Part shown: in pieces, positions 42,553 through 61,297 of the stretch
Position numbering within the stretch: the stretch's first letter is position 1
Layout of the letters: the number at the start of each line of letters is the position of its first letter
From: Parcubacteria group bacterium M10-OD1-1
GTDB lineage: Bacteria; Patescibacteriota; Minisyncoccia; Moranbacterales; UBA2206
Direction of reading: 5' to 3'
Assembly: GCA_003056145.1 (NCBI GenBank)
Contig: LSNL01000006.1
Coordinates: forward strand, 6,119 to 70,118
DNA: 64,000 bases
The notes under the pieces: model-generated
Seen by the model: the letters and a program-made list of their open reading frames with translations, nothing else
Databases searched by the model: none
Told to the model about the DNA's origin: nothing
Made by a program: the position numbers and the translations under genes

Positions 42553-42745
42553 ATTTTTAAATTATTATTAGTTAAAATCATTCAGTAAAACCAGTTTAAC
42601 CCAATATGTTGTATAACTACTAACTATTGTACCACAATTAAAAAATTTGCCAACTGTTTAAAAAGGGTCCATTTTAAGGTCTTTTTTAAACACTTAAAAA
42701 ACCCACCTAGTCAAACTTTGTGAGTTTTTGTTATTTTGAAGAAAG

Positions 42746-43684
42746 TTATTTAATTCGTTGATAATTTTTTAATCGTTCTTGATATTTTTCAAAGACTTGC
42801 GGTCCCTTTGGTTGAGGCAAAAAAACTAAAGCCTTACTGTCAGCCGAAACAGCACTTTCTGGATAATGAGTTCGCGGATCTTTAGCAATTCGTTGGAGTT
42901 GCCATTTTTTTAGTCCATTTTCTAGCCAATCAAAATCCAATATTTTCTCTAAAACTTTTCTAATCTCTGATGTCAATAAACTATCAGTTATCATTTTTAA
43001 ATTGGGAATTTCATCTAGACGGTAGTTTATTTTATAACGCTTAATCCAATTATTTTTTGTTTGGAAAACTTGAAAAGTTTTCCAACCAAAAATTGGAAAT
43101 AAAAAAGAGTATTCTGAGGAAGAAAAAAGATCTTGTAATCCAATTTCCAGATTTTCATCTGTTACATAGTAATTTAAACAAATCCTATCAGTAATTTTTT
43201 TAGCATATCTTCTTCTGCCTAGAATATGCGTTAGAAAGGTAACCAACAATCTGCCAGTAAATAACCTCCCTTTTTGAATAACAATAAATAAATCTAAATC
43301 GCTTTTCTTTTCAGCATTTTTATTTGCTACTCTACCAGTCACCGCTATCATCTTCAGATAAGGAACCAATCTCAACCAACGAACTATTTTTTGAATAATC
43401 CTATATTTTTTTTCGGTTATTTTATTTCTCTTACTTCTTTGAGCAACTAAACTTTTTCTCCCTCTCAGAAAATAAAATCCTTGATTTTCTTCTATCAAAC
43501 CTCTAAGCTTATGATTTTCTAGTTCCTGATAAATTTCTATCAACGAGTACTGATTATTATCCTTAGTATTTTCTTCTCCATCTCGAATTAAATATTTCCA
43601 ACATTCAAAAACCGTTAGTGGCAAATCTAACACATCATAATAAATAATAGTGATAAGAATATTTTTCGTTAAACTTTCTAACAT
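42746..43684 (-). CDS. nucleotidyltransferase-fold (Pol-beta superfamily) domain protein, function unknown
   Basis: GRVANKNAEKKSDLDLFIV matches the minimal NTase G[SG]-x(9-13)-D-x-D motif. Confidence 0.45.
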   Translation of the reverse strand: MLESLTKNILITIIYYDVLDLPLTVFECWKYLIRDGEENTKDNNQYSLIEIYQELENHKLRGLIEENQGFYFLRGRKSLVAQRSKRNKITEKKYRIIQKIVRWLRLVPYLKMIAVTGRVANKNAEKKSDLDLFIVIQKGRLFTGRLLVTFLTHILGRRRYAKKITDRICLNYYVTDENLEIGLQDLFSSSEYSFLFPIFGWKTFQVFQTKNNWIKRYKINYRLDEIPNLKMITDSLLTSEIRKVLEKILDFDWLENGLKKWQLQRIAKDPRTHYPESAVSADSKALVFLPQPKGPQVFEKYQERLKNYQRIK

Positions 43685-43725
43685 CTCTTTAATAAAACAT
43701 TATTTAAGTTTTAATTTGTAGTTTT

Positions 43726-46530: not shown

Positions 46531-46697
46531 CTTATAAAGGTTGAAGTGGTATTACTAGGTATTAATGTTACACGAGATTTGAATATTTGGCAAGCTAATA
46601 TCTTTTCACTAATTCTGAACTACTTATAAAATTTTCATCCAATTTTAAAAGCTCCTTTTTAAGGAGCTTTTAAATAGAATCTTAGCTTGAAAACTTT

Positions 46698-47714
46698 TTA
46701 ATTAGAACAACTTTCTCCACCACCTTTATTAGCTGCTTGGCTACCATAGCCAAATCCAGGATTAGGAACAGTAGTAGATAGCTTCTTATTACATTCCGCT
46801 GGAGCTTTTGTAAAAGCTGAGCAAATAGTTTTTAACAAACCTTCAGAACTTCTATTAGTTGGCTTTACTCCTATTTGAGTTCCGTTAATTACTAAAGTTG
46901 GTGAACCCTTAACTTTATATTTTTCATTATCTGATTTATCTATGTTAAAAGTAGGAAATTGACCATTAGACCAAGTATCTTTATTGTTATAGTTAGTTGT
47001 TACTTTAAATTGACTGTCTGCCTTTTTCATACAGTTAGTAATTTTAGAACCATCAATTTTAGCTTCTTTTAAACAATTAGCCTCTGTCCCTTCCCCTTTC
47101 TTCAAGAAACAACCTAAATAGGTTTCTAGCTGAATTGGAAAATCTTTTTTAACACAATATTGTCGCAAATTTTCATCTAATTCCTTCTTTCCATGCATTG
47201 AATAATCAACAAATTTTAAATTAAAATCTATCTTACTTCCTAAATCTTTTAATACTGGCAACAAACCTTTTTCTATTTGAGTTCCATAAGGACAATAACT
47301 CATTACAAACAAATCTACGGTTGGTTTATCACTTTTTGGTGCTTGTTTAGCTGGAGCAGATTTAGCAGCTTGTTTTTTCATTTTTTCCACTTCGGCGATA
47401 TTAATACTTCCTCTAGGAAAGAACTCTTTTCCATCTTTACTCAAATAAGTATTTGCTAACTGATTATTAACTTTGATAGTAATCTTATAAAGACCGTTCT
47501 CATCAGAAATATTTTTTACTTCTGCTTTTTCTCCTGGCTGTAACATATTATTATTAACAAAATCAATCACTTTAGTTTTCGCTTCATTTTTAGTTAATAT
47601 TTTATTTTGAGCAGTTAGCTTAAACTCATTTCTATAAAAAAGATACCCAGCAACAGCTAGAATAATTATTCCAATGGCGATTATAATCGCTACTTTTTTA
47701 TTTTTTTGTTCCAT
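46698..47714 (-). CDS. membrane-anchored DsbA/thioredoxin-fold protein with an atypical CPYG (single-Cys) active-site motif and a Cys-rich C-terminus
   Basis: TM anchor; thioredoxin-like ...FVMSYCPYGTQ... and cis-Pro-region-like SPTLVINGTQIGV. Confidence 0.45.
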   Translation of the reverse strand: MEQKNKKVAIIIAIGIIILAVAGYLFYRNEFKLTAQNKILTKNEAKTKVIDFVNNNMLQPGEKAEVKNISDENGLYKITIKVNNQLANTYLSKDGKEFFPRGSINIAEVEKMKKQAAKSAPAKQAPKSDKPTVDLFVMSYCPYGTQIEKGLLPVLKDLGSKIDFNLKFVDYSMHGKKELDENLRQYCVKKDFPIQLETYLGCFLKKGEGTEANCLKEAKIDGSKITNCMKKADSQFKVTTNYNNKDTWSNGQFPTFNIDKSDNEKYKVKGSPTLVINGTQIGVKPTNRSSEGLLKTICSAFTKAPAECNKKLSTTVPNPGFGYGSQAANKGGGESCSN

Positions 47715-48283
47715 TAATTTTTTTATTATTTTAATTATTAGTTTTGTTATTTTTCAATAAATTCAATAACTTTTTAATTATACAACTTTTTATTTTAAAA
47801 AACAAATTCTAGTCTTGTCTAATACAAAATAAGCCCGAAGGCTTATTTGGCAGAGATAATAACCACAATTTTAGGCACCAGATACAGTTTTTTGAAACTA
47901 GTCCTTACAAAAAATGACAATAGCTCTAAGAAGAAAATAATGGAAATTAAAAAAGAAAATATTTGAAAAAATTAAGTGATTTTATAATAAACTAGTCTAA
48001 ATTGTAAGTTGTGTTTCAGGAGTCATTTGAGAATTAAAATATACTGCATAATTTATGGTCCGTGTCAGGTTTTCTATTCTACACAAACAAGCTCCACTAT
48101 TACAGGCATGCCTCCCAGTTATATCTAGTTTGCTTTATTATTTATATATATTCACTATCTATTTAACAAGAGGTGTATCTTCTTCCAAAACTTTGATACA
48201 CCTCCTGAATAGCTATTCTCTTTTTTTACTAATCATTCAGTATTATCCTCAGAAAACCATTTCGTGAAAATAATCAACTAACC

Positions 48284-50695
48284 CTAGAACCAACTAAATG
48301 GATTATACCAATGAGACTCACTCTGAGTCTTTTGAGGAGCTGAGGTTTTTTCTGATTGAGTAGGAGCAGTAGTTTCTGATTGAGTAGGAGTTGGATTACT
48401 TTCAGTTGTCTGATTACCTTCTGTTTGAGTTTGAGTCTTAGCTGAATTAGCTTGATTGGATTGAGATTGAGTATTACTTTCTGCTGAAGAGGTAGTCTTA
48501 GCTGATGTCTTAGCTGATGTCTTAGCTGATGTCTTAGCTGATGTCTTAGCTGATGATTGAATTGCTAAACCAACCTTGAGATTGCCAGTTTTGATAGTGT
48601 AGTTACCCGCTCTATCATAAGCTTTAACTTTTATAGGATATACTCCAGCTGTAAGATTGCCGGGAAGAGTAAATTCAGGAGTATGATTATTGAAAATCCT
48701 TCCTTGAAAATAAATTTTATATTTTTTTATCTTGTCGTTATCAGTAGCTAAAAACTTGATAGTTTGTCCTTTGTGATAGCTAATCGTAGTTGAAGGGAAT
48801 TGGGAGAAAATTGGTTTGAGAGTATCTGTTCTGACAATAATAGGTTTTGACAATCCTGAAGAATTACCTGCTTGATCATAAACTCTTATGTAATAAGTGT
48901 CTTTGCTAGATCTATTTTTTGGAAGTTTTATCTTCCAACTTCCATCTCTATCTATATCTACTGTTCCTATGCGATGTTTATTACCTTTTTTGTTTTTTCT
49001 ATATAACACAACGGTTCCCTTCTCTGCTTCTGAGTTTGTTCCTCTGAGAGTGGGTTTTCTCTTCTTTGAGAAAATAATGGAATGTTTCTTCTTGTTTAAG
49101 CTAGTACCGTTGTGACTTGATAATTTAATGCTACTTCTTTTACTACTAGGAGCTGTCTTGTCATAAAGAATATTTAAAGTTGTGCTATCACTCTCATAAT
49201 CAATATAGTCTCGGAATTTAACATAGAGCTTTTTATTCCCTTCAGAGTTAAAAGTATATACTTTAGTTTTTTGATATGGTTCCCAAGTGGCTCCAGAGAA
49301 ATCAGAGTTTTCACTAATCATCATATCTTTAGCGTCTGTAGCAGTAAAGTTAAGAGTCACTTGGTTATCTGTTGTAACAGAAGGATAGTTGATGGAAATG
49401 TTTTTTGGACCGAGATGAAAGATAAGAACACGGTTATTAGTATTAGTATCAGAAACAAAAAGCTTGTTATTAATCGCGAAAAGCATTGAAACATTACTTG
49501 TTTTTTTAGCTGATAATCCAACTGAGTTAGTTGTTAAATCAGGTTGTCCTAAGACATAATCAGCGGAAATATCATTGGTAGTAGGAATGTGAGAAAAAAT
49601 AGTTACTCTAGAATTACTCCATTCACCGATAAATATTTTTCCTTGTTGTTCAATAACGCTTTGAGGATATTCCTCGGTTTTTGCCGTTGGACCAGTTAAT
49701 CCTTGATTCGGTGAACCACTTACCATATCTGGTTGACCGATAACCGTATCAGCGGAAGCATCATTAGTAGTAGGAATATGATTATAGATAAGAGTTCTTG
49801 AATTTCCATTATCAGCAATGTATAATTTTCCATCATTATTAATATAAAGACCGCTAGGATCACTTAAAGTTTTAGCACTAACAGTTCCTCCTTGATTAGC
49901 AGAGTTGCTAATCATATCCGGCTGTCCAATCACTACATCAGCGGAAGCATCATTGGTGGTAGGAATGTGATTATAGATAAGAACACGATTATTGCCCCGG
50001 TCAAGAATAAACATTTTACCTTGATATACAAAAACATCGTGAGGATAATCTATCGTATTAGCGTTGGCTGTTGCTTCTCCTTGATTAGTAGAGTTGCTAA
50101 TCATATCCGGCTGTCCAATCACTACATCAGCGGAAGCATCATTGGTAGTAGGAATGTGATTATAGATAAGCACTCTATTATTACCTCCACGGGATGGTCC
50201 ACCTTCCCCATCGCAAATAAATAGTTTTCCTTGATAAACAAAAATCCCAGTTGGACCAAAAAGAGTATTCGCTCCCACACTTCCACCTTGATCGGCATCT
50301 CCACTCGTAAAATCTTTCTGTCCAATAACTACATCAGCGGAAGCATCATTAGTAGTAGGAATGTGATTATAGATAAGCACTCTATTGCTTCTTTCTTCTG
50401 CTATAATTAATTTCGTTCCATCGCTCCAAATTCCTTTAGGAAAATCTATTGTATTCGCTCCAACACTCCCTCCTTGGTTTGCATCGCCACTTGTGAAATT
50501 TGGCTGACCAATTACTACATCCGCATTCTTATCAATTCCAATAGCTTGAGCCGAATTAGTATTAACAAAAGCTAGACCAACGATTAATAATGCTACTCCA
50601 GCAATACTTTTAATTCTTTGGTTTAGTTTTAATTTTGAATTTTGTTCTTCTAAATTGCTAGAATTCAATTTCATTTTTTGCAATACTTTTTTCAT
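48284..50695 (-). CDS. secreted NHL-repeat beta-propeller surface protein (803 aa) with Ig-like region, AKTS repeats, Thr/Ser/Gln-rich tail and C-terminal HWYNPFSWF
   Basis: Signal peptide ...AGVALLIVGLAFVNTNSAQA. Six or more repeats of NRVLIYNHIPTTNDASADVVIGQPD. Confidence 0.7.
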   Translation of the reverse strand: MKKVLQKMKLNSSNLEEQNSKLKLNQRIKSIAGVALLIVGLAFVNTNSAQAIGIDKNADVVIGQPNFTSGDANQGGSVGANTIDFPKGIWSDGTKLIIAEERSNRVLIYNHIPTTNDASADVVIGQKDFTSGDADQGGSVGANTLFGPTGIFVYQGKLFICDGEGGPSRGGNNRVLIYNHIPTTNDASADVVIGQPDMISNSTNQGEATANANTIDYPHDVFVYQGKMFILDRGNNRVLIYNHIPTTNDASADVVIGQPDMISNSANQGGTVSAKTLSDPSGLYINNDGKLYIADNGNSRTLIYNHIPTTNDASADTVIGQPDMVSGSPNQGLTGPTAKTEEYPQSVIEQQGKIFIGEWSNSRVTIFSHIPTTNDISADYVLGQPDLTTNSVGLSAKKTSNVSMLFAINNKLFVSDTNTNNRVLIFHLGPKNISINYPSVTTDNQVTLNFTATDAKDMMISENSDFSGATWEPYQKTKVYTFNSEGNKKLYVKFRDYIDYESDSTTLNILYDKTAPSSKRSSIKLSSHNGTSLNKKKHSIIFSKKRKPTLRGTNSEAEKGTVVLYRKNKKGNKHRIGTVDIDRDGSWKIKLPKNRSSKDTYYIRVYDQAGNSSGLSKPIIVRTDTLKPIFSQFPSTTISYHKGQTIKFLATDNDKIKKYKIYFQGRIFNNHTPEFTLPGNLTAGVYPIKVKAYDRAGNYTIKTGNLKVGLAIQSSAKTSAKTSAKTSAKTSAKTTSSAESNTQSQSNQANSAKTQTQTEGNQTTESNPTPTQSETTAPTQSEKTSAPQKTQSESHWYNPFSWF

Positions 50696-51116
50696 ACTTT
50701 TAGTTTTAGTTTTAAAAATTAATTATCAAAATACCGAAGAAGGACAAATATCTTTAAAAATCTATCCCGACTACGAAGTTAATTACATACCCTTTGAAGA
50801 ATTTTTCTTCAATTATTGATATAATTAATTTGACAAAAAGTCATTTAATTCGCAGTTGATATTTTATTATCTTTATTCTATATATTTTTTAAATTTGAGT
50901 CAAATAAAAAATACTTTTAAATAATTACTTCTATTTTACTCTGCCCCTTTAAGGTTGTCAAATTATTTTTCAGTCTTGTTTCAATATTTTATTTCTGTAT
51001 TCCTTTTTCCATTCCTGCAAAGGCAAAAATCTAGTCACTAAGTCTTGTTTTAGCGTAAAAACTTCTAAATTAGTTTGTTTCTTCAATTATTTTAATCGCA
51101 AAATTTAAAAAATAAT

Positions 51117-51151
51117 AAAAAACCTTGCAAAATAGAATTTCGCAAGGTTTT
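51117..51151 (-). terminator. duplicated copy of the ftsZ terminator hairpin (inside repeat copy 1)
   Basis: AACCTTGCAAAATAGAATTTCGCAAGGTTTT, identical to 58083-58117. Confidence 0.6.
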
Positions 51152-51178
51152 AAAAGTAGCTAAAACATTTAACTAAAT

Positions 51179-51247
51179 TTATTTTCCCATTTTTCTCCGA
51201 ATAAAAGCTGGAATCTCTAACTCATCATCTTCATCATTAAGTTCTTT
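51179..51247 (-). pseudogene. 3'-terminal 23-codon fragment of ftsZ (...DDELEIPAFIRRKMGK*) carried at the end of repeat copy 1
   Basis: Identical to the genuine ftsZ 3' end at 58145-58213. Similarity breaks at 51248. Confidence 0.75.
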
Positions 51248-51440
51248 CCTATGCAAATAAAGTTTCCAAAGTATATATAACCCTTTTTCAATTTTTTAAA
51301 TATATTCTTTTCCTTTAAAATACCGACTGCCCTACAGTATCTTTCTGCTCGGGAAAAACAACTGCCATTTCTTTTTTTAATAATATAACTACCCATGCCC
51401 CCGCTTTGATTCGCATCTCCATTTGTGCACTTTATTAAAA
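51248..51440 (-). pseudogene. degenerate fragment of a second NHL-repeat paralogue (…TNGDANQSGGMGSY…)
   Basis: Diverged but recognisable nucleotide and protein similarity to the GDANQGGSVGAN region of the NHL genes. No intact ORF. Confidence 0.4.
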
Positions 51441-51586
51441 AAATGTACCTTGATTATCAGAACAAATCAATACTATTATACTTTGGCTCGGAAACTTAGC
51501 GCTTTGAGCCAACGCCCTAGAAAACGCCGGAATCAAGAAGCCAGTCAACCAACTATTCCCCCGACAAATCTTTTTTTGAAAACGTT

Positions 51587-53152
51587 TTATTTCAATATTT
51601 TGACAGTTCCTTTTCCCGCATCAACCTCCAACATATCCCCTGTTTGTACAACTCTTGTAGCTACTTTTGTTCCAACGATACAAGGCAATTTAAATTCGCG
51701 ACTAATAATCGCAGCGTGACACGACATTCCGCCTTCATCTGTAATAACCGCCGCCGCTTTTCTAAAAGCCGGAATAAACTCAATTGTTGTCATATAAGTA
51801 ACCAAAATCTCACCTTCTTGTAATTGAGAGACCTTTGAGGCGTCCTCAAGCACTCTCGCCCTAGCTTTTATTTTCCCTGGAGAAGCTGATAACCCTTTAA
51901 ACTCTGTTGTATTAATAATCTTTTCAAACGGACCTGATATATCTTCGTCATTGATTGTTTTCTTAATTTGATCTTTCCCTGTTACTAAATCAAATTTACC
52001 CTGTTTGATTTTGATTATAAAACCGTTTTGTTTGCGTTCTTCTATCTCTTCTTTTGCAATTGTTTTTCCAGACTTAATTGACTGTTCCAGTTCTGTATAT
52101 GAATAAGACAACAAATCGTCTCGAGTTACCTTAAGACGCGACGCTATCTCATCAAGAAGTTTGTTATAGCTTAGTAACGATCGAGTGAAATACCCTTTGG
52201 TCCAATCTCTCATTGCTATAAACTCTGCCAAAGAGTCTATAGCATGCAATACATCCTTTGGAGGATTTAATTCATTAATAATTTTTTGTCTCTGAGTATT
52301 AAGACTATTAAAATTTGCAATAAGCTCTTCCAATTTCTCTTTTGGAGAGGCGTCTTCTGTTACTATCGCTTTTTTAAATGACTCAATCCATTTTTCTCTT
52401 GACCAACCACCACTAACATATTCTGTATTTATCCACTCATATTTCTGGGTATGCTTTTCAAACAACGAATCTTCCTCTGGGTATTTTTTTAGTCCCGCAC
52501 TGATTTCTTCAATAGTTTCATTTTGAAACATTTTCTTTATTTCTTCATCTTCGTATAACCTTGTGGCTATTTGAAAAAAGTTCTTTTGTTCCGTAAAAGC
52601 CACCGTTTCTCCCGTATTAACTAAAAGTGCACTTTTATACATATCAAAATCTCTTCCCTTATTAAGCTCTTGTAGACGGTTTTGTAAGAAAGTAATTATC
52701 TTATAATCTTCATCTATACAAGCCTCTATACCCCATAACTGAACTGTAATAATTGGAGCCACCATCATCGTATTGATAAAATCCTTATACATATACAAGA
52801 CTTCATCATTTGACAAAAGTTTTAAATTTTCTAAATCAATATTAATACATTTAAAGAAAATAGCCCCAAATATCTCATCTGTTCTCCGATGAAAATCTTT
52901 AACAAAATTCGGGTTCTTGTCTATACTGTCTTGAATATCTTTAAATTTTGCACCTGACTTTAACTGACTTTTATCATAAAATACATAACAACCTTTTCCC
53001 GGAACACCAACAACAATTTGGTTATCAAACCAAAAATCTACAGCCGGTGCCCAGCCTTTACTAGACATGCCACGCATAAGAATACTGAAATGATGTAAAC
53101 TTGCATTTCTTCTGTGCGCCCAAAACCAATTTATTTTACCTTGTTCATTCAT
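51587..53152 (-). CDS. PEP-utilising-enzyme phosphohistidine (swivel) domain protein with a ~420-aa N-terminal region (rifampin-phosphotransferase/PEP-synthase-like C-terminal part)
   Basis: C-terminal ...ILVTYMTTIEFIPAFRKAAAVITDEGGMSCHAAIISREFKLPCIVG (GG-x-x-S/T-H-A-A-I-x-x-R-E mobile-domain signature). Confidence 0.7.
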   Translation of the reverse strand: MNEQGKINWFWAHRRNASLHHFSILMRGMSSKGWAPAVDFWFDNQIVVGVPGKGCYVFYDKSQLKSGAKFKDIQDSIDKNPNFVKDFHRRTDEIFGAIFFKCINIDLENLKLLSNDEVLYMYKDFINTMMVAPIITVQLWGIEACIDEDYKIITFLQNRLQELNKGRDFDMYKSALLVNTGETVAFTEQKNFFQIATRLYEDEEIKKMFQNETIEEISAGLKKYPEEDSLFEKHTQKYEWINTEYVSGGWSREKWIESFKKAIVTEDASPKEKLEELIANFNSLNTQRQKIINELNPPKDVLHAIDSLAEFIAMRDWTKGYFTRSLLSYNKLLDEIASRLKVTRDDLLSYSYTELEQSIKSGKTIAKEEIEERKQNGFIIKIKQGKFDLVTGKDQIKKTINDEDISGPFEKIINTTEFKGLSASPGKIKARARVLEDASKVSQLQEGEILVTYMTTIEFIPAFRKAAAVITDEGGMSCHAAIISREFKLPCIVGTKVATRVVQTGDMLEVDAGKGTVKILK

Positions 53153-53158
53153 AATTAA

Positions 53159-54082
53159 TTATTTAAAATTTAATTTACCACTAAACGATTTATTTCCACT
53201 GAAATTCCCTTGAACCTTTATACCATATTTTCCATCCTCTTTTACGTATTCCAATTTAAGTGACTGGGACTCTTTTATAACGCCACCAGTTCTCTCAAAA
53301 AAATCTTCCGCCCTTAATTCCTTTGCTGGTGTCCCGTCCTCAAAAACTAGATACTTTTTTAGTAAACTCATAATTGGAAACGAGTGCGAAATATCAATCT
53401 GTTTATATGACTCATCTTTAGGCTGAAGATTTCCGAGGTCTCTGTTTGAAGCAAGTAGCCCGGTATGTTTCAAAAAACCACTGTATCTTTTAGCCAGTTT
53501 ATCAGCCAGATCTTCATAAGAAGTATGGAATCCTTTCTGCTCAGCCTTCTCCGAATCAAACAGTATCGTCAATACTTTTATATCAATAAAATTTCTAACT
53601 TCCGCTTCTTTTTCTTCCACAGAAAAATCAGGGTGCTCTTGATTAACCTTGTCTCGTATCAACGGCTCTAAAGATTTCTGTAGCTTAACAATGATCTCTA
53701 AATCTTTAGTATCTTGCTCTTTTTCTGCTTCGCCTAAGGGCTGAAAAGGTACCTCAAGTTTCTCCTGTTTACTACTTATATTCTTGTGCCTATGCTCCGT
53801 TGCGGAAACTCTTTCCAAATCTATCGCCGCCGTATCTACAGCTCTTTCAATAGGACTGCTAGAAATATGGACAAGTCCTTTGCCTTCTTGAATACCCATT
53901 TCTTCAAACCCTTTCTCCACAGAAGCACTAAAATGCTGTGCTTTTTCGTTTTTCTCTCCAGAGGCACTGAGTTTTGGACCGTGGCGTTGCAAATAGGTTT
54001 CAAAGATAACTTTTTCGGCATCCTCTTTTTTTTCTGCCACATTCTCTTTCGGTTTATTTAAATTTTCAAAATTCTCTTTCAT
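53159..54082 (-). CDS. hypothetical protein (307 aa) between the ATP-grasp and phosphohistidine-domain ORFs
   Basis: Intact ORF in the same frame as both neighbours. No family recognised. Confidence 0.4.
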   Translation of the reverse strand: MKENFENLNKPKENVAEKKEDAEKVIFETYLQRHGPKLSASGEKNEKAQHFSASVEKGFEEMGIQEGKGLVHISSSPIERAVDTAAIDLERVSATEHRHKNISSKQEKLEVPFQPLGEAEKEQDTKDLEIIVKLQKSLEPLIRDKVNQEHPDFSVEEKEAEVRNFIDIKVLTILFDSEKAEQKGFHTSYEDLADKLAKRYSGFLKHTGLLASNRDLGNLQPKDESYKQIDISHSFPIMSLLKKYLVFEDGTPAKELRAEDFFERTGGVIKESQSLKLEYVKEDGKYGIKVQGNFSGNKSFSGKLNFK

Positions 54083-54085
54083 ATT

Positions 54086-55033
54086 TCAAACATTAAGTGT
54101 TGTTATTGGACGAGATTGCGTAATATAGAAAGTTTCCTGTTCCAGCACCCATTCAATATCGCAAGGAAAACCGTAATGATTTTCTATCAGAATAATAATA
54201 TTTACCAATTCAAGAATCTTATTTTCAGTCAATACTTGTGCTTCAGCTTTTTCTTCCGGAAGTTTTTTCCACTCACAACCACCTCGCTCAGCTCTATACA
54301 ACCCTTTGTTTTGCGTACTCACATTTATATCAGTAATCTGTATCGGTTTTTTCTCAACCACATAATTATCCGGTGTAATCTGACCTGACACAATCGCATC
54401 ACCCAATCCAAACCCTGCCTCAATTACAATTTGATTTTCGTCTTGTATAACCGGATGCACCGAAAACGCAACTCCTGCAGAGTCAGCTTCAATCATTTTT
54501 TGGACAACAACAGCGACAGATATTTTTTGATTATTAAGTTTTTTTTCAAAACGATAAAAAATTGCCCGGACCGTAAAAAGGGACGCCCAACATTTACGTA
54601 CGTTTTCTAAAAATTTATCTTCCGTCGTATTTAGATAACTATCGAGCTGTCCTGCCCACGCAGCAGCCGAACTGTCCTCGGAAGTGGCGGATGAACGTAT
54701 GGCAACATATTTTGCTCCTAATTTTTTAAAATCTTTTTGTATCTCATCTATAACATCTTCTGGAATTTTAGCGTCTAAGATAAGAGACTGGATTTTTTGT
54801 GAGGCTTCTTCAACGGTAGCTATAATATTATGATCTACTTTATTTAGTAAGACTTCTATTTTCGGATTAAGCTCTGCGTCTTCAATAAACTTATCAAATG
54901 CATCAGAAAGCACTACAAAACCAGGAGGCACGGGGATACCAGCTTGTGTCATTTCCCCTAAAGAGGCTCCCTTGCCACCGGCAATTGCCACATCGTCTTT
55001 ACTAAGATTTACAAAATCACGAGTAAATTTCAT
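54086..55033 (-). CDS. PPDK_N-type ATP-grasp (PEP/pyruvate-binding, nucleotide-binding) domain protein; N-terminal part of a PEP-synthase/rifampin-phosphotransferase-like enzyme
   Basis: VAIAGGKGASLGEMTQAGIPVPPGFVV...AIRSSATSEDS...VVVQKMIEADSAGVAFS, typical of the pyruvate phosphate dikinase N-terminal domain. Confidence 0.7.
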   Translation of the reverse strand: MKFTRDFVNLSKDDVAIAGGKGASLGEMTQAGIPVPPGFVVLSDAFDKFIEDAELNPKIEVLLNKVDHNIIATVEEASQKIQSLILDAKIPEDVIDEIQKDFKKLGAKYVAIRSSATSEDSSAAAWAGQLDSYLNTTEDKFLENVRKCWASLFTVRAIFYRFEKKLNNQKISVAVVVQKMIEADSAGVAFSVHPVIQDENQIVIEAGFGLGDAIVSGQITPDNYVVEKKPIQITDINVSTQNKGLYRAERGGCEWKKLPEEKAEAQVLTENKILELVNIIILIENHYGFPCDIEWVLEQETFYITQSRPITTLNV

Positions 55034-55273
55034 ATGTTATATAAAGTATTATACTACACGTTAGTAACTGTTATCCAAGGCTATGCATACTCTCAGTATT
55101 ACTATAAATAATATCTAGTTTGCTTTATTATTTTTATATATTCACTATCTATTTAACAAGAGGTGTACCTTCTTCCAAAACTTTGATACACCTCTTAAAT
55201 AGCTATTCTCTTTTTTTACTAATCATTCAGTATTATCCTCAGAAAACCATTTCGTGAAAATAATCAACTAACC

Positions 55274-57661
55274 CTAGAACCAACTAAATGGATTGTACCA
55301 ATGAGACTCACTCTGAGTCTTTTGAGGAGCTGAGGTTTTTTCTGATTGAGTAGGAGTTGGATTACTTTCAGTTGTCTGATTACCTTCTGTTTGAGTTTGA
55401 GTCTTAGCTGAATTAGCTTGATTGGATTGAGATTGAGTATTACTTTCTGCTGAAGAGGTAGTCTTAGCTGATGTCTTAGCTGATGTCTTAGCTGATGTCT
55501 TAGCTGATGTCTTAGCTGATGATTGAATTGCTAAACCAACCTTGAGATTGCCAGTTTTGATAGTGTAGTTACCCGCTCTATCATAAGCTTTAACTTTTAT
55601 AGGATATACTCCAGCTGTAAGATTGCCGGGAAGAGTAAATTCAGGAGTATGATTATTGAAAATCCTTCCTTGAAAATAAATTTTATATTTTTTTATCTTG
55701 TCGTTATCAGTAGCTAAAAACTTGATAGTTTGTCCTTTGTGATAGCTAATCGTAGTTGAAGGGAATTGGGAGAAAATTGGTTTGAGAGTATCTGTTCTGA
55801 CAATAATAGGTTTTGACAATCCTGAAGAATTACCTGCTTGATCATAAACTCTTATGTAATAAGTGTCTTTGCTAGATCTATTTTTTGGAAGTTTTATCTT
55901 CCAACTTCCATCTCTATCTATATCTACTGTTCCTATGCGATGTTTATTACCTTTTTTGTTTTTTCTATATAACACAACGGTTCCCTTCTCTGCTTCTGAG
56001 TTTGTTCCTCTGAGAGTGGGTTTTCTCTTCTTTGAGAAAATAATGGAATGTTTCTTCTTGTTTAAGCTAGTACCGTTGTGACTTGATAATTTAATGCTAC
56101 TTCTTTTACTACTAGGAGCTGTCTTGTCATAAAGAATATTTAAAGTTGTGCTATCACTCTCATAATCAATATAGTCTCGGAATTTAACATAGAGCTTTTT
56201 ATTCCCTTCAGAGTTAAAAGTATATACTTTAGTTTTTTGATATGGTTCCCAAGTGGCTCCAGAGAAATCAGAGTTTTCACTAATCATCATATCTTTAGCG
56301 TCTGTAGCAGTAAAGTTAAGAGTCACTTGGTTATCTGTTGTAACAGAAGGATAGTTGATGGAAATGTTTTTTGGACCGAGATGAAAGATAAGAACACGGT
56401 TATTAGTATTAGTATCAGAAACAAAAAGCTTGTTATTAATCGCGAAAAGCATTGAAACATTACTTGTTTTTTTAGCTGATAATCCAACTGAGTTAGTTGT
56501 TAAATCAGGTTGTCCTAAGACATAATCAGCGGAAATATCATTGGTAGTAGGAATGTGAGAAAAAATAGTTACTCTAGAATTACTCCATTCACCGATAAAT
56601 ATTTTTCCTTGTTGTTCAATAACGCTTTGAGGATATTCCTCGGTTTTTGCCGTTGGACCAGTTAATCCTTGATTCGGTGAACCACTTACCATATCTGGTT
56701 GACCGATAACCGTATCAGCGGAAGCATCATTAGTAGTAGGAATATGATTATAGATAAGAGTTCTTGAATTTCCATTATCAGCAATGTATAATTTTCCATC
56801 ATTATTAATATAAAGACCGCTAGGATCACTTAAAGTTTTAGCACTAACAGTTCCTCCTTGATTAGCAGAGTTGCTAATCATATCCGGCTGTCCAATCACT
56901 ACATCAGCGGAAGCATCATTGGTGGTAGGAATGTGATTATAGATAAGAACACGATTATTGCCCCGGTCAAGAATAAACATTTTACCTTGATATACAAAAA
57001 CATCGTGAGGATAATCTATCGTATTAGCGTTGGCTGTTGCTTCTCCTTGATTAGTAGAGTTGCTAATCATATCCGGCTGTCCAATCACTACATCAGCGGA
57101 AGCATCATTGGTAGTAGGAATGTGATTATAGATAAGCACTCTATTATTACCTCCACGGGATGGTCCACCTTCCCCATCGCAAATAAATAGTTTTCCTTGA
57201 TAAACAAAAATCCCAGTTGGACCAAAAAGAGTATTCGCTCCCACACTTCCACCTTGATCGGCATCTCCACTCGTAAAATCTTTCTGTCCAATAACTACAT
57301 CAGCGGAAGCATCATTAGTAGTAGGAATGTGATTATAGATAAGCACTCTATTGCTTCTTTCTTCTGCTATAATTAATTTCGTTCCATCGCTCCAAATTCC
57401 TTTAGGAAAATCTATTGTATTCGCTCCAACACTCCCTCCTTGGTTTGCATCGCCACTTGTGAAATTTGGCTGACCAATTACTACATCCGCATTCTTATCA
57501 ATTCCAATAGCTTGAGCCGAATTAGTATTAACAAAAGCTAGACCAACGATTAATAATGCTACTCCAGCAATACTTTTAATTCTTTGGTTTAGTTTTAATT
57601 TTGAATTTTGTTCTTCTAAATTGCTAGAATTCAATTTCATTTTTTGCAATACTTTTTTCAT
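55274..57661 (-). CDS. secreted NHL-repeat beta-propeller surface protein, paralogue (795 aa; 8-aa deletion TTAPTQSE in the C-terminal tail relative to copy 1)
   Basis: Protein identical to 48284-50695 apart from the tail indel. Confidence 0.7.
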   Translation of the reverse strand: MKKVLQKMKLNSSNLEEQNSKLKLNQRIKSIAGVALLIVGLAFVNTNSAQAIGIDKNADVVIGQPNFTSGDANQGGSVGANTIDFPKGIWSDGTKLIIAEERSNRVLIYNHIPTTNDASADVVIGQKDFTSGDADQGGSVGANTLFGPTGIFVYQGKLFICDGEGGPSRGGNNRVLIYNHIPTTNDASADVVIGQPDMISNSTNQGEATANANTIDYPHDVFVYQGKMFILDRGNNRVLIYNHIPTTNDASADVVIGQPDMISNSANQGGTVSAKTLSDPSGLYINNDGKLYIADNGNSRTLIYNHIPTTNDASADTVIGQPDMVSGSPNQGLTGPTAKTEEYPQSVIEQQGKIFIGEWSNSRVTIFSHIPTTNDISADYVLGQPDLTTNSVGLSAKKTSNVSMLFAINNKLFVSDTNTNNRVLIFHLGPKNISINYPSVTTDNQVTLNFTATDAKDMMISENSDFSGATWEPYQKTKVYTFNSEGNKKLYVKFRDYIDYESDSTTLNILYDKTAPSSKRSSIKLSSHNGTSLNKKKHSIIFSKKRKPTLRGTNSEAEKGTVVLYRKNKKGNKHRIGTVDIDRDGSWKIKLPKNRSSKDTYYIRVYDQAGNSSGLSKPIIVRTDTLKPIFSQFPSTTISYHKGQTIKFLATDNDKIKKYKIYFQGRIFNNHTPEFTLPGNLTAGVYPIKVKAYDRAGNYTIKTGNLKVGLAIQSSAKTSAKTSAKTSAKTSAKTTSSAESNTQSQSNQANSAKTQTQTEGNQTTESNPTPTQSEKTSAPQKTQSESHWYNPFSWF

Positions 57662-58082
57662 ACTTTTAGTTTTAGTTTTAAAAATTAATTATCAAAATAC
57701 CGAAGAAGGACAAATATCTTTAAAAATCTATCCCGACTACGAAGTTAATTACATACCCTTTGAAGAATTTTTCTTCAATTATTGATATAATTAATTTGAC
57801 AAAAAGTCATTTAATTCGCAGTTGATATTTTATTATCTTTATTCTATATATTTTTTAAATTTGAGTCAAATAAAAAATACTTTTAAATAATTACTTCTAT
57901 TTTACTCTGCCCCTTTAAGGTTGTCAAATTATTTTTCAGTCTTGTTTCAATATTTTATTTCTGTATTCCTTTTTCCATTCCTGCAAAGGCAAAAATCTAG
58001 TCACTAAGTCTTGTTTTAGCGTAAAAACTTCTAAATTAGTTTGTTTCTTCAATTATTTTAATCGCAAAATTTAAAAAATAAT

Positions 58083-58117
58083 AAAAAACCTTGCAAAATA
58101 GAATTTCGCAAGGTTTT
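58083..58117 (-). terminator. rho-independent terminator of ftsZ
   Basis: Minus-strand CCTTGCGAAATTCTATTTTGCAAGG followed by TTTTTTATT. Confidence 0.65.
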
Positions 58118-58144
58118 AAAAGTAGCTAAAACATTTAACTAAAT

Positions 58145-59371
58145 TTATTTTCCCATTTTTCTCCGAATAAAAGCTGGAATCTCTAACTCATCATCTTCAT
58201 CATTAAGTTCTTTTTCTTTTTGACTTTGAAAAGAACTTTTAGTTGCTTTAGGTGGAACTTTATCTTCAATGATCATACTAGACTCAAATTTTTCTGGAAA
58301 AGTTATTTTTGGTTCAGATTCTATTTCTTGATTTTGATTTTGATCTAATTCCTTTTTTTGAAAATTCTCAGTAGAAATTCTAGATATTTTTTCTAAAGGT
58401 GATTCACTGGCATGATCGCTATCAAATCCAGTTGCCACGACTGTAACTTGAATTTCTCCCTTTTTCACCGCTTCATCAACTACTGCTCCAAAAATAACCT
58501 TAGCATTAGGATCTATAGACTCTGTAATAATATTAGCTGCTTCATTTATTTCTAACATCGTTAAGTCAGTTGAACCACTAACATTAAATAAAACTCCTTT
58601 TGCTCCATCAATAGAAAGTTCTAATAATGGACTATTAATAGCAGCCTTAGCTGCATCAGCAGAACGATTTTCACCTGAGCCAATTCCAATCCCCATTAAA
58701 GCACTTCCGCTATCAGACATAATAGCTTTAACATCGGCAAAATCCACATTAACAATTCCTGGTTTAGTTATTAAATCAGAAATTCCTTGCACGCCTTGTC
58801 TTAAAACATCATCTACTATTTTGAAAGAGTTGATTAAGGTAGTTTTCTTATCAATAACTTGCAATAATCTATCATTAGGAATAGTGATTAAAGTATCCAC
58901 TCTTTCTTTTAGATTTTCTAAAGCTTCTTCGGCAATAGCTCTTCTTTGCGCTCCCTCAAAACCAAAAGGTTTAGTTACAACAGCCACAGTCAAAGCTCCT
59001 GACTCCTTAGCTGTTTCAGCAACAATCGGAGCAGCTCCAGAACCAGTTCCTCCACCAAGCCCACAAGTTACAAAAACCATATCAGCTCCTTTTAAAACTT
59101 CTTGAATTTCGTCACGATTTTCTTCAGCAGCTTGACGCCCAACATCTGGGTTCATTCCAGCACCTAAACCTTTAGTTAAATTTTTTCCAATATGAATTTT
59201 CTCCGCTGCTCTATTATGATGTAAATCTTGAGCATCTGTATTGATAGCCACAAATTCTACGCCCTTCAATTTTGCCTCAATCATCCGACTAATTACATTC
59301 CCTCCGGATCCGCCAACGCCAACTACTTTAATTCTAGCAAAAGTTTCTACTGGTGGTTTTATTTCAGCCAT
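58145..59371 (-). CDS. ftsZ: cell-division GTPase FtsZ
   Basis: GGGTGSG tubulin signature, T7 loop, C-terminal ...DDELEIPAFIRRK peptide. Confidence 0.95.
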   Translation of the reverse strand: MAEIKPPVETFARIKVVGVGGSGGNVISRMIEAKLKGVEFVAINTDAQDLHHNRAAEKIHIGKNLTKGLGAGMNPDVGRQAAEENRDEIQEVLKGADMVFVTCGLGGGTGSGAAPIVAETAKESGALTVAVVTKPFGFEGAQRRAIAEEALENLKERVDTLITIPNDRLLQVIDKKTTLINSFKIVDDVLRQGVQGISDLITKPGIVNVDFADVKAIMSDSGSALMGIGIGSGENRSADAAKAAINSPLLELSIDGAKGVLFNVSGSTDLTMLEINEAANIITESIDPNAKVIFGAVVDEAVKKGEIQVTVVATGFDSDHASESPLEKISRISTENFQKKELDQNQNQEIESEPKITFPEKFESSMIIEDKVPPKATKSSFQSQKEKELNDEDDELEIPAFIRRKMGK

Positions 59372-59597
59372 ATATTTTATAGATATTACGTTGACCCTAA
59401 AAATAAATTCTGATCAACTAAAAATTTTATTTAAACTTAATTACTTTTCAGCCCTTAATTTAACATTTTACTCATTTCTGTTAGTATCTAAATCTACCAT
59501 ATCATTTGGTTATATGTCAAATCAAACTTAAATAGTTATTTTTGTTTTAAATTTATTTTTGTTTTAAATAATTACTGATAAATTAACTTTTTTAAAA

Positions 59598-60848
59598 TTA
59601 AGGCAAAAATTTTCCTAACCATTTTTTAATCTTATTGGTCACTTTTTCTAAATTCAAACCTATAAAGTCACTCCTAGTTTTATTTTTAATTCCAGCACTA
59701 GCATTTTCAATCCCCCAGATTAAAAGACCAATCGCCGTCGCAAAAGAAGGTTCATCTACTTTATCAACTAATCCACCTAGGGTAACCGGAAAACCAGTTT
59801 GAGCCGGCAATCCAAAAATATTTTTTGCTAAATCTACTGCTCCTGGTAATTTAGCTGTTCCTCCAGTTAAAACTACTCCTGCAGGAAGCAATCCGTCTCT
59901 TTTAATAGCTTTCAATTCTTTATTAACTAAAGTAAAAATTTCTTCCAACCGAGCTTCAATTATTTCCGCTACATGGTACCGAGAAACTGTTCCTTCTTCA
60001 TTGCTATCAATTTCAGCTAAATTAATATCTTCTTTTTTACTAATTTCTTTTGGCATCGCATTACCAAATTCTAATTTCACCTTCTCAGCTACATCAATAG
60101 ATGTTCTTAATCCAATCGCGATATCATTAGTAATATGACTACCTCCTACTGGCACTACCGAAGTTAATAACAAATCATTTTCTTCAAAAGCTGAAATAGA
60201 AGTTGTCCCGCCACCAATATCTACTAAAACTACTCCTAATTCTTTTTGTCTTTTAGTCAAAATAGAACGAGCAGAAGCTAAAGAAGTTAAAACAAAATTT
60301 TCAATCCCAATTCTTAATTGATCAAAACACTTAGTTAAATTTTTAATATGTGGCGTTGAACCCTCAATAATCAAAGCTTCTACTTCTAAACGAATTCCGT
60401 TCATTCCTAGAGGATCCTTAATATTTGTCTGCTCATCTAAGGAATAACTTTTTGAAATAATATGAATTATTTCTTTATTAGAAGGTACTGATATGGCTTG
60501 AGCAGCAGAAATAACTCTTTCAATATCTTCTTCAATAACTTCTCCGTCAGCCCTGCCAATCGCAATTACTCCCTTAGAATTTTGAGAAGAAATATGATTA
60601 CCTCCGATACTAACCACCGCTTGATCAATTGTTACTCCAGCTATCCGTTCCGCTTCTTCTAGCGATTCGCTAATCGCCTTAGTAGTTTCTTCAATATCTA
60701 CAATAATTCCTCTCCTCACACCAAAAGACGGAGCAACGCCCACTCCAATAATTCTTGGTTTTTCTTCTGTTGGAATTATTTGTGCAATAATTGTTCTTAT
60801 GCTAGATGAACCAACATCTATACCACAAACAATATCTTTCTTTGACAT
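59598..60848 (-). CDS. ftsA: cell-division protein FtsA
   Basis: Actin-fold motifs (GIDVGSSSIRTII, DIGGGTT); located upstream of ftsZ. Confidence 0.9.
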   Translation of the reverse strand: MSKKDIVCGIDVGSSSIRTIIAQIIPTEEKPRIIGVGVAPSFGVRRGIIVDIEETTKAISESLEEAERIAGVTIDQAVVSIGGNHISSQNSKGVIAIGRADGEVIEEDIERVISAAQAISVPSNKEIIHIISKSYSLDEQTNIKDPLGMNGIRLEVEALIIEGSTPHIKNLTKCFDQLRIGIENFVLTSLASARSILTKRQKELGVVLVDIGGGTTSISAFEENDLLLTSVVPVGGSHITNDIAIGLRTSIDVAEKVKLEFGNAMPKEISKKEDINLAEIDSNEEGTVSRYHVAEIIEARLEEIFTLVNKELKAIKRDGLLPAGVVLTGGTAKLPGAVDLAKNIFGLPAQTGFPVTLGGLVDKVDEPSFATAIGLLIWGIENASAGIKNKTRSDFIGLNLEKVTNKIKKWLGKFLP

Positions 60849-60937
60849 CTAGTAATTTATTTTAATTTTTTATTTTGACTTATTAAAGTATATTATAAAA
60901 ACCGATAAGTAACAACTACCTACTAATTAACTCATTT

Positions 60938-61297
60938 TTATTTAAAAATATACGGAATAAATACGATGCATCCAATCACAATAGCTAAAATAGAAACCAA
61001 CAGAACACTAGCGGCCATTAAATCTTTAGCTAAGCGAGCATAAGGGTGAACTTTCGGTTTTAAAATATCAACTAATCTTTCTAAAACAGTATTTAAAATT
61101 TCCATTATTAATACTCCTCCAATTGTAATAATTAAAACGATAATTTCAAACTGATTAATTTTAAAATAAACAGCCATTAAAACCACTAGGAAGCCTACTG
61201 CTAATTCATTTTGAAAGTTCTTTTCTGATCGTACAATGTATCTTAATCCTCTTAAAGCAAAAGAAAAACTTTTGGAAAACTTTCTAATTCTACTCAT
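60938..61297 (-). CDS. dgkA: diacylglycerol/undecaprenol kinase (DgkA family)
   Basis: 119 aa, three TM helices, SFSFALRGLRY...E N-terminal amphipathic motif typical of prokaryotic DAGK. Confidence 0.7.
   Translation of the reverse strand: MSRIRKFSKSFSFALRGLRYIVRSEKNFQNELAVGFLVVLMAVYFKINQFEIIVLIITIGGVLIMEILNTVLERLVDILKPKVHPYARLAKDLMAASVLLVSILAIVIGCIVFIPYIFK

What the first reader, a model, noticed from the sequence alone, without database searches (positions are those of the whole stretch)
48121..58213. Two near-identical ~3.1-kb direct repeats bracketing a 3.9-kb insert; copy 1 carries a 69-nt ftsZ 3' fragment that gives the duplication's direction
48121-51247 and 55111-58213 are near-identical; differences seen are a few SNPs and one 24-bp in-frame indel. 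Each includes a complete NHL-repeat surface-protein gene, its flanks and the ftsZ terminator. Copy 2 runs straight into the intact ftsZ. Copy 1 ends with the last 23 codons of ftsZ and then abuts a degenerate NHL-paralogue fragment. So copy 1 is a derived copy of [NHL gene + ftsZ 3' end] inserted into another NHL-family gene. The arrangement is a substrate for homologous recombination: deletion of the PPDK-like insert, or amplification. It could also be a collapsed or mis-joined assembly.
Basis: seen in the sequence. Interest (0 to 1): 0.7.

Follow-up and report, generated by a model that had tools for sequence, protein, structure and literature searches.

The report
Recent 3.1-kb duplication beside ftsZ
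A tiny-genome (Moranbacteria-like, CPR) bacterium carries two almost identical copies of a surface-protein gene, together with the tail of the neighbouring cell-division gene ftsZ, on either side of a three-gene enzyme cassette. The repeat is supported by independent assemblies, but it is an ordinary recent segmental duplication, not a new kind of system.

Summary
Window 48121-51247 and 55111-58213 are direct repeats that differ by 5 SNPs and one 24-nt in-frame indel. All differences lie in the leftmost 252 nt; the other 2875 nt are identical.

Each copy holds the last 22 codons plus stop of ftsZ, the ftsZ terminator, a strong promoter-like site, a complete NHL/Ig-like secreted-protein gene and a 3' hairpin. 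Only copy 2 continues into intact ftsZ, so copy 1's right junction is derived.

Contigs from at least five independent public assemblies cross all four unique/repeat junctions. Seven of the nine contig ends lying at the repeat boundaries stop exactly k-1 (30 nt) or 101 nt inside the repeat. The repeat is therefore genuine and multi-copy, not a mis-join.

Not supported:
- The "degenerate NHL-paralogue fragment" next to copy 1 scores at chance level.
- There is no transposase, terminal inverted repeat or target-site duplication.
- The "PPDK-like" insert is a three-ORF rifampin-phosphotransferase/PigC-type enzyme without the PEP-binding domain.

Unresolved:
- Which left junction is ancestral.
- Whether both copies sit on one molecule. 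The short-read graph equally fits one chromosomal copy plus a ~7-kb circle.

One 99.7-99.97% identical strain appears to lack the derived junction, which hints at presence/absence polymorphism. Interest is modest.

The parts
48121..51247 (.). Repeat copy 1 (R1), 3127 nt
   Evidence: blastn 99.07% to copy 2; difference list
55111..58213 (.). Repeat copy 2 (R2), 3103 nt, contiguous with intact ftsZ
58145..59371 (-). Intact ftsZ (408 aa). Its last 69 nt (58145-58213) lie inside R2
   Evidence: Pfam Tubulin + FtsZ_C; synteny dagK-ftsA-ftsZ in relatives
51179..51247 (-). Orphan ftsZ 3' fragment: 22 codons (KELNDEDDELEIPAFIRRKMGK) plus stop. It marks the derived junction J3 (51247/51248)
   Evidence: tblastn FtsZ 387-408, 100%; sequence read. 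Junction crossed by independent contigs L004, L088, L089
51119..51151 (-). Copy of the ftsZ intrinsic-terminator-like hairpin (15-bp stem plus T-run). Twin at 58085-58117
   Evidence: fold -16.4 kcal/mol
50933..50961 (-). Promoter-like site TTGACA-17-TAAAAT (11/12) upstream of the NHL gene. Twin at 57899-57927, so both gene copies carry their own promoter
   Evidence: consensus match only
48284..50695 (-). NHL gene copy 1, 803 aa. Signal peptide, six 63-aa NHL-type blades, Ig-like Big_13 domain, (SAKT)5 and S/T/Q-rich tail
   Evidence: Pfam NHL 2.9e-12, Big_13 2.1e-7; translation; tandem repeats
55274..57661 (-). NHL gene copy 2, 795 aa. Identical to copy 1 except for an 8-aa deletion in the low-complexity tail
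48349..48372 (-). 24-nt in-frame indel (present in R1 only), bounded by the 16-nt direct repeat CCTACTCAATCAGAAA. This is a slippage signature
48167..48207 (-). 3' hairpin after the NHL stop codon. Twin at 55157-55197. Three of the four UTR SNPs lie in the stem and keep pairing
   Evidence: RNA fold -21.5 vs -19.9 kcal/mol
55134..55338 (.). Patch in R2 that holds all differences from R1. In another population this end of R2 carries the R1 alleles
   Evidence: L088 is 100% identical to 48221-48121 but has 4 mismatches to 55211-55111
51248..55110 (-). Insert, 3863 nt. Contains p315 (54086-55033, ATP-grasp PPDK_N), p307 (53159-54082, no family) and p521 (51587-53152, substrate-domain remnant plus phosphohistidine swivel domain). 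Also 339 nt non-coding (51248-51586)
   Evidence: Codon-usage/GC3 outliers
46698..47714 (-). p338, a DsbA/thioredoxin-like membrane protein. First gene beyond R1. Junction J1 is at 48120/48121
   Evidence: J1 crossed by L085 and L086

Best explanation
This is a genuine, very recent segmental duplication in the chromosome of a Moranbacteria-like CPR bacterium. The duplicated block R runs from 69 nt inside the 3' end of ftsZ to 163 nt past the stop codon of the NHL surface-protein gene. It carries the ftsZ terminator, the NHL promoter, the NHL ORF and a 3' hairpin. R now occurs twice in direct orientation around a 3.86-kb three-gene cassette that encodes a split rifampin-phosphotransferase/PigC-type enzyme.

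Both ends of R are abrupt, with no homology beyond them, so the copy was made by two illegitimate joints and not by a mobile element. The joint between the insert and the orphan ftsZ tail (J3) is certainly derived. The second derived joint is either J1 or J2, and this is undecided. If J1, R was pasted downstream of the cassette. If J2, cassette plus an R copy were added to an ftsZ-NHL-p338 ancestor, for example by unequal sister-strand joining with captured DNA or by a single-crossover insertion-duplication.

The outcome is two complete, promoter-equipped, practically identical copies of the surface-protein gene. The I operon now runs into a copy of the ftsZ terminator. The 3.1-kb direct repeats can delete or amplify the cassette by homologous recombination (inferred). 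The few differences, clustered at one end of R2, are later local changes: one slippage indel and a short patch of substitutions.
For: Repeat and anatomy.

Independent support for all four junctions:
- NCBI metagenome contig L088 equals the insert plus exactly 101 nt of R on each side.
- L002 and L003 end exactly 101 nt into R after ftsZ.
- Logan contigs L004 and L089 end exactly 30 nt (k-1) into R after J3.
- L085 starts exactly 30 nt inside R before J1 and is 100% identical over 9997 nt.
- In every assembly that holds it, the insert sits on a 2-5 kb contig.

Derived status of J3: dagK-ftsA-ftsZ is conserved in the Moranbacteria-like relatives inspected (loci L005-L040 of the 80 fetched), and only R2 continues into ftsZ.

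Recency:
- 2875 nt are identical, including a 12-nt x5 tandem array.
- The NHL N-terminus of a 99.7-99.97%-identical strain is already 5% different at the protein level.

No mobile-element features:
- No transposase or integrase domains.
- Longest terminal inverted repeat is 6-11 nt; flanking direct repeats are 6 nt or less.
- No inverted repeats of 40 nt or more.
- No hit to plasmids or phages.

Later local change in R2: L088 shows R2's end with the R1 alleles in another population. The indel is flanked by a 16-nt direct repeat.
Against: - No read or contig spans a whole repeat copy, so the order ftsZ-R-I-R-p338 on a single molecule rests on the source assembly alone. A short-read assembler would traverse the R-I loop once by default.
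- The 100% identity of the 2875-nt core could partly reflect one graph edge being used twice.
- Two contig ends do not obey the k-1 rule and are unexplained. L004 starts at 55109, not 55140. L086 starts 28 nt, not 30 nt, inside R.
- Four substitutions within 64 nt are too dense for independent mutation in lineages that differ by 0.1% or less. The patch therefore needs an unidentified donor, or it is a strain chimera in the assembly.
Confidence: 0.75

Rival explanations
1. Loop ambiguity. The chromosome has one copy (ftsZ-R-p338). The insert plus a second R exists as a separate ~6.97-6.99-kb circle or tandem array, or only in part of the population. The linear R-I-R path is then the assembler's single traversal of a loop.
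For: The graph has two entries into R and two exits from it, with 2.9 kb of identical sequence between them, so short reads cannot phase them. In sample SRR14803397, contig L001 runs from ftsZ 906 nt into R without a branch. This implies the insert-to-R junction is absent or rare there, while J1 is present in L086. nrdR is found on 8 contigs but the insert on only 5.
Against: The insert and R encode no replication, partition or integrase function, so a stable episome is unlikely. In the window, the two R left ends are distinct and each is tied to its own exit. Five assemblies show the same two insert junctions. The counts of 8 vs 5 contigs depend on exact-protein look-ups and are weak.
Confidence: 0.12
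2. Copy 1 replaced part of an older NHL paralogue, either by insertion into it or by gene conversion primed on paralogous homology. The divergent left end would be old homology, and an NHL gene remnant would lie at 51248-51586.
For: All differences cluster in the left 252 nt (P~3e-7). There is a weak match TNGDANQSGGMGSYII vs NHL residues 68-83.
Against: The match (23.1 bits) equals the median best score of shuffled sequence (22.3; max 28.9). Similar weak hits occur on the opposite strand. Nothing NHL-like lies at 47715-48120. Homology stops abruptly at both ends of R. In GCA_006243085.1 the left 101 nt of R2 are identical to R1, so the divergence is not fixed old homology.
Confidence: 0.06
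3. Assembly artefact: a collapsed or mis-joined repeat, or a chimera of strains, with no real second copy.
For: The source is a MAG contig (171,166 nt according to P0121 and P0241). The 2875 identical bases would also result from re-use of one graph edge.
Against: The junction of insert to the orphan ftsZ tail, and both exits from R, are each recovered in independent assemblies from different runs and different assemblers. Contig ends fall at exactly 30 or 101 nt inside R.
Confidence: 0.03
4. Product of a mobile element: a composite transposon, integrative element or phage remnant whose ends are the repeats.
For: Direct repeats flank a cassette with atypical codon usage.
Against: No transposase, integrase or recombinase. 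No terminal inverted repeats or target-site duplications. No tRNA at the borders; the only tRNA is at 23389-23460. No similarity to plasmids or phages. The 'repeat' is ordinary chromosomal sequence that includes part of ftsZ.
Confidence: 0.03

Closest known systems
Bacterial segmental duplication / duplication-amplification units (direct low-copy repeats that arise by illegitimate joining and are then lost or amplified by RecA-dependent recombination). Cited from general knowledge, e.g. the Salmonella/E. coli gene-amplification literature.
   Same: Kilobase-scale, near-identical direct repeats with abrupt ends and no element functions. One copy carries an orphan piece of a neighbouring gene. 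Deletion or amplification of the enclosed segment is predicted.
   Different: The copies are not adjacent. A 3.86-kb unrelated cassette sits at the joint. Instability is inferred, not shown. The host is a ~1-Mb CPR genome, where such repeats are uncommon.
Insertion-duplication by single-crossover (Campbell-type) integration of circular DNA that carries a chromosomal fragment (general knowledge; laboratory insertion-duplication mutagenesis in streptococci).
   Same: The end product is identical in form: a resident segment duplicated in direct orientation around the incoming DNA, with neither terminal inverted repeats nor target-site duplications. The genome encodes ComEC-like uptake proteins.
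   Different: There is no evidence for a circular intermediate or a vector backbone. The origin of a circle joining R to the cassette is unexplained.
Surface-antigen cassette systems of reduced genomes (Mycoplasma MgPa repeats, Anaplasma msp2, Borrelia vls), from general knowledge.
   Same: A fast-evolving, repeat-rich surface-protein gene present in more than one copy in a small genome. There are signs of local recombination.
   Different: Both copies are full-length, have their own promoter and are identical. They therefore provide dosage, not a reservoir of variants. Defining features were tested and not met.
Rifampin phosphotransferase / PigC / RedH-type PEP-utilising enzymes (for the insert).
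   Same: ATP-grasp domain (p315, RPH model 3.8e-85). C-terminal stretch plus swivel His domain (p521 aligns to RPH structures 5FBS/5HV1 residues 654-866). No PEP-binding TIM barrel.
   Different: Split into three ORFs totalling 1143 aa, with an extra 307-aa piece that has no known family. No NCBIfam cut-off is reached. The substrate is unknown. The 520-aa piece forms a family of its own in CPR and DPANN.

Membership tests
Segmental direct duplication (low-copy repeat) | Two copies over 1 kb, near-identical, in the same orientation | tested here: met
   99.07% over 3127 columns; 2875 nt identical
Segmental direct duplication (low-copy repeat) | All unique/repeat junctions exist in reads, not only in this assembly | tested here: met
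   J1: L085, L086. J2: L088. J3: L004, L088, L089. J4: L001-L003. Most contig ends fall exactly 30 or 101 nt inside R
Segmental direct duplication (low-copy repeat) | Both copies on one molecule in the stated order, at 2x depth | not testable with these tools
   No reads or depth are available, and no contig spans a full copy
Transposon / integrative mobile element | Transposase, integrase or recombinase gene | tested here: not met
   Pfam, NCBIfam and PADLOC scans of all ORFs from 42746 to 61297
Transposon / integrative mobile element | Terminal inverted repeats and target-site duplication or att sites | tested here: not met
   Longest terminal IR 6-11 nt in AT-rich sequence; flank direct repeat 6 nt or less; no IR of 40 nt or more
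Campbell-type insertion-duplication | Resident segment duplicated in direct orientation around the inserted DNA | tested here: met
   R-I-R layout
Campbell-type insertion-duplication | Inserted DNA is foreign, and an empty-site form exists | tested here: inconclusive
   The insert genes are codon/GC3 outliers (z -1.4 to -2.3), but their family is typical of CPR. The unbranched ftsZ-to-R contig in SRR14803397 fits an empty site or a secondary deletion equally well
Campbell-type insertion-duplication | Circular intermediate | not testable with these tools
   Needs reads or PCR
Antigenic-variation cassette system | Silent, truncated, promoter-less donor copies that differ in sequence from the expressed copy | tested here: not met
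   Both copies are complete, each has the same promoter-like site, and the proteins are identical except for 8 aa
NHL-repeat beta-propeller protein (PF01436) | NHL repeat match above the Pfam gathering score; repeated blades | tested here: met
   46.4 bits vs cut-off 20. Five copies of a 189/207-nt unit detected per gene. 7230 homologues, best 41-52% identity
   PPDK_N and PEP-utilizers are present on separate ORFs. There is no PEP-utilizers_C hit. All NCBIfam scores are far below the cut-offs

The most novel reading that the evidence does not exclude
The R-insert-R unit is a naturally unstable, recombination-driven gain/loss (or amplifiable) module in an ultra-small CPR genome. Near-identical strains would differ by presence or absence of the 7-kb [cassette + second surface-protein gene] unit. 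The unit may exist transiently as a circle that can re-enter naive cells by DNA uptake and single-crossover integration. That would give an element-free route of gene-cassette exchange in Patescibacteria.
Probability: 0.15. Interest if true: 0.5.

Novelty: new member of a known kind. Interest (0 to 1): 0.3.

Why it matters
CPR/Patescibacteria have streamlined ~1-Mb genomes with few long repeats, and little is known about how they rearrange. This is a well-documented, population-supported example of a kilobase duplication that doubles a fast-evolving surface-protein gene and brackets an accessory enzyme cassette. It shows that ordinary duplication and homologous-recombination dynamics operate in these genomes.

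It also flags a practical problem. In every short-read assembly examined here the locus is fragmented: the ftsZ-side, insert and p338-side contigs all break at the repeat boundaries. No gene with either full-length NHL product is on record. The closest protein among 5.8 billion clusters is 41-52% identical.

It does not reveal a new mechanism or system.

Tried and rejected
- Exact-protein look-ups of both NHL products found nothing on record. The look-up of P0121, and of p338 and p521 as I delimited them, also failed, although those clusters exist.
- A JGI metagenome scan with the 22-nt R-end sequence gave one chance hit, L087, with no other similarity. That collection apparently lacks this organism.
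- The genome-contig scan with FtsZ found only relatives at 85% identity or less. None has NHL, p338 or the cassette next to ftsZ, so the ancestral order could not be read from relatives.
- The flanks 51248-51586, 47715-48120 and 55034-55110 have no protein or DNA similarity in related loci or elsewhere in the window.
- The test for an NHL-fragment remnant gave chance-level scores.
- Rfam found nothing in the region. PADLOC gave nothing relevant. Plasmid and phage DNA searches gave no match.
- Literature searches on the run/assembly accessions and on NHL repeats in CPR gave 0 papers.
- I considered that variation is enriched in the insert relative to the flanks. I rejected this because the ftsZ contig of the same assembly (L003) shows the same ~0.1% divergence.
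- I considered using the apparently single-copy strain to polarise J1 vs J2. I rejected this because recombination between the repeats regenerates ftsZ-R-p338 whichever way the duplication arose.

Full report
**1.

blastn aligns window 48121-51247 with 55111-58213 at 99.07% over 3127 columns, with 5 mismatches and 1 gap. A base-by-base alignment places the SNPs at 48144, 48178, 48205, 48207 and 48305. The 24-nt indel lies at 48349-48372. Beyond both ends the sequences are unrelated.

All six differences lie within the leftmost 252 nt. Positions 48373-51247 are identical to copy 2. The probability of such clustering under uniform mutation is about 3e-7.

**2. Anatomy of the region**

All genes lie on the minus strand. 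In gene order they are: ftsA (59598-60848), ftsZ (58145-59371), R2, the insert, R1, p338 (46698-47714), uvrA (43726-46530), p312, nrdR and nrdD.

Each repeat copy contains, in order:
- the last 22 codons plus stop of ftsZ (tblastn FtsZ 387-408 at 51247-51182);
- a 15-bp-stem terminator-like hairpin (51151-51119 / 58117-58085);
- an 11/12 promoter-like site (50961-50933 / 57927-57899);
- a complete ORF of 803 or 795 aa;
- a 13-bp 3' hairpin (48207-48167 / 55197-55157).

The ORF encodes a signal peptide, six NHL-type blades with a 63-aa period, an Ig-like Big_13 domain, a (SAKT)5 array and an S/T/Q-rich tail. The two proteins differ only by 8 aa. The indel is bounded by a 16-nt direct repeat, which is a slippage signature. 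Three of the four UTR substitutions sit in the hairpin stem and keep pairing.

**3. The insert (51248-55110, 3863 nt)**

- p315 is a complete ATP-grasp PPDK_N domain.
- p307 has no detectable family.
- p521 ends in the phosphohistidine swivel domain. It aligns to residues 654-866 of the Listeria rifampin phosphotransferase structures 5FBS/5HV1.
- The PEP/pyruvate-binding domain is absent and no curated NCBIfam cut-off is reached. The cassette is therefore an RPH/PigC-type enzyme in three pieces, not a PPDK.
- The 520-aa piece is a conserved stand-alone family in CPR and DPANN, from 81% down to 35% identity. The split is therefore not decay.
- The three genes are among the four most atypical of 50 window ORFs in synonymous codon use and GC3.

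**4. Organism and context**

FtsZ finds Moranbacteria/Parcubacteria MAGs at 85% identity or less. In these relatives, dagK-ftsA-ftsZ is conserved. nrdR-nrdD follows ftsZ after 85-316 nt in ten loci, and after 0.8-5.6 kb of unrelated genes in seven others. In the window, 15.6 kb lie between ftsZ and nrdR. None of the relatives has an NHL gene, p338 or the cassette at this site, so the ancestral order cannot be read from them.

**5. Is the repeat real? Junction evidence**

Exact-protein look-ups recovered contigs of the same or near-identical strains from independent assemblies. I label the junctions J1 (48120/48121), J2 (55110/55111), J3 (51247/51248) and J4 (58213/58214).

| Contig (source) | What it covers | Where it ends relative to R |
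|---|---|---|
| L002, L003 (two NCBI metagenomes) | ftsZ side, across J4 | End at 58113, exactly 101 nt into R |
| L088 (NCBI) | 55211..51147: insert, across J2 and J3 | Exactly 101 nt of R on each side |
| L004, L089 (Logan, k=31) | Insert, across J3 | End at 51218, exactly 30 nt into R |
| L085 (Logan) | p338 side, across J1; 100% identical over 9997 nt | Starts at 48150, exactly 30 nt into R |

All four junctions are thus seen independently. The contig ends have the signature of de Bruijn-graph branching at a true multi-copy repeat. Wherever it is found (5 contigs), the insert sits on a 2-5-kb contig. A mis-join or chimera specific to this assembly is excluded.

**6. What remains open about topology**

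The graph has two entries into R (ftsZ body; insert end) and two exits (insert start; p338 flank), separated by 2.9 kb of identical sequence. Short reads cannot distinguish ftsZ-R-I-R-p338 from ftsZ-R-p338 plus a ~7-kb R+I circle or a mixed population. A short-read assembler would traverse such a loop once.

The source record is a 171,166-nt NCBI contig, and its sequencing technology is unknown to me. I favour the linear form for two reasons. The 7-kb unit has no replication or partition genes. In the window, each R left-end variant is tied to its own exit.

Two contig ends remain unexplained. L004 starts at 55109 instead of 55140. L086 starts 28 nt, not 30 nt, inside R.

**7. Direction and mechanism**

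The orphan ftsZ tail makes J3 a derived joint. It does not identify the second derived joint.

- Model 2: J1 is native, and cassette plus an R copy (6,990 nt) was added to ftsZ-NHL-p338.

It held that 51248-51586 is a decayed NHL paralogue. The best of 121 family proteins scores 23.1 bits there, against a median of 22.3 and a maximum of 28.9 bits on shuffled sequence. Equally weak hits occur on the other strand, and nothing is found at 47715-48120.

The atypical composition of the cassette mildly favours it being an addition, but that is compatible with both models.

In sample SRR14803397 (a 99.7-99.97% identical strain), contig L001 passes from ftsZ 906 nt into R without a branch. J3 is therefore absent or rare there, while J1 is present in L086. 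This fits a single-copy strain. However, recombination between the repeats would regenerate that state under either model, so it does not polarise the event. It does hint that the unit is polymorphic among close strains.

No mobile-element features were found:
- no transposase or integrase;
- no terminal inverted repeats;
- no target-site duplication;
- no tRNA at the borders;
- no plasmid or phage similarity.

**8. Age and later changes**

The identical 2875-nt core includes a perfect 12-nt x5 array. By contrast, the NHL N-terminus of the sister strain is only 94.9% identical at the protein level, although its FtsZ is 100% identical. The duplication, or the last homogenisation, is therefore very recent.

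In L088, the 101 nt of R next to the insert carry the R1 alleles at all four SNP sites. The R2-specific patch in the window is therefore a strain-specific later change. Four substitutions in 64 nt suggest a short imported tract, or a strain chimera in the assembly. It is not old homology.

**9. Verdict**

This is a real, recent, element-free segmental duplication of [ftsZ tail, terminator, NHL surface-protein gene] around an accessory enzyme cassette in a CPR genome. It is a plausible substrate for deletion or amplification. It is ordinary in kind, modestly interesting for CPR genome dynamics, and useful as a warning that this locus breaks up in short-read assemblies.

Noticed in passing
window 42103-58145; loci L005-L029: The site downstream of ftsZ is a variable spot in Moranbacteria. 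nrdR follows ftsZ after 85-316 nt in ten relatives, and after 0.8-5.6 kb of unrelated genes in seven. In this genome the gap is 15.6 kb and includes uvrA.
   Followed up: partly
window 51587-55033: A three-ORF RPH/PigC-type PEP-utilising enzyme: ATP-grasp piece, a 307-aa piece with no family, and a 521-aa piece with the swivel His domain. The 520-aa piece is a conserved stand-alone family across CPR and DPANN archaea, with unknown substrate. L073 (Magasanikbacteria) also has a PPDK_N/PEP-utilizer gene about 5 kb downstream of ftsZ.
   Followed up: partly
window 49524-50391 and 56490-57357: The NHL blades are 189/207-nt tandem units. Neighbouring blades share 69-106-nt stretches at 95-97% identity, suggesting intragenic recombination or concerted evolution. 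These internal repeats are where Logan contig L001 breaks.
   Followed up: no
window 48167-48207 / 55157-55197: In the 3' hairpin after the NHL gene, three substitutions between the copies are all structure-preserving transitions (C-G to U.G, G.U to A-U, U-A to U.G). The fold energy is -21.5 vs -19.9 kcal/mol.
   Followed up: partly
L004 start (window 55109); L086 start (window 48148): Two Logan contig ends do not follow the k-1 rule at the repeat boundary. L004 begins 1 nt inside the insert rather than 30 nt inside R, which implies a second predecessor sequence at 55109/55110 in SRR6439371. L086 begins 28 nt, not 30 nt, inside R at a (TA)n run.
   Followed up: partly
L001 11712-12065 vs window 57661-57308: In a strain whose FtsZ is 100% and FtsA 99.76% identical, the first 118 residues of the NHL protein are only 94.9% identical. 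The surface protein therefore evolves, or is exchanged, much faster than its neighbours.
   Followed up: no
window 2815-3636 (+): This ORF is the strongest codon-usage and GC3 outlier of the 50 ORFs examined (z = -3.2 and +2.9). It is possibly foreign.
   Followed up: no
window 39553-42050 (L085 6101-8598): Anaerobic ribonucleotide reductase appears as a 724-aa NrdD plus a separate 92-aa ORF that also hits the NRDD family, followed by the NrdG-like radical-SAM activase. ComEC is likewise split into a DUF4131/Competence ORF and a Lactamase_B ORF.
   Followed up: no
window 47825-47850 (-): A terminator-like hairpin (AATAAGCC-TTCG-GGCTTATT followed by TTTGT) lies about 270 nt beyond the end of R1. 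No ORF lies between R1 and the hairpin, and it sits upstream of p338.
   Followed up: no
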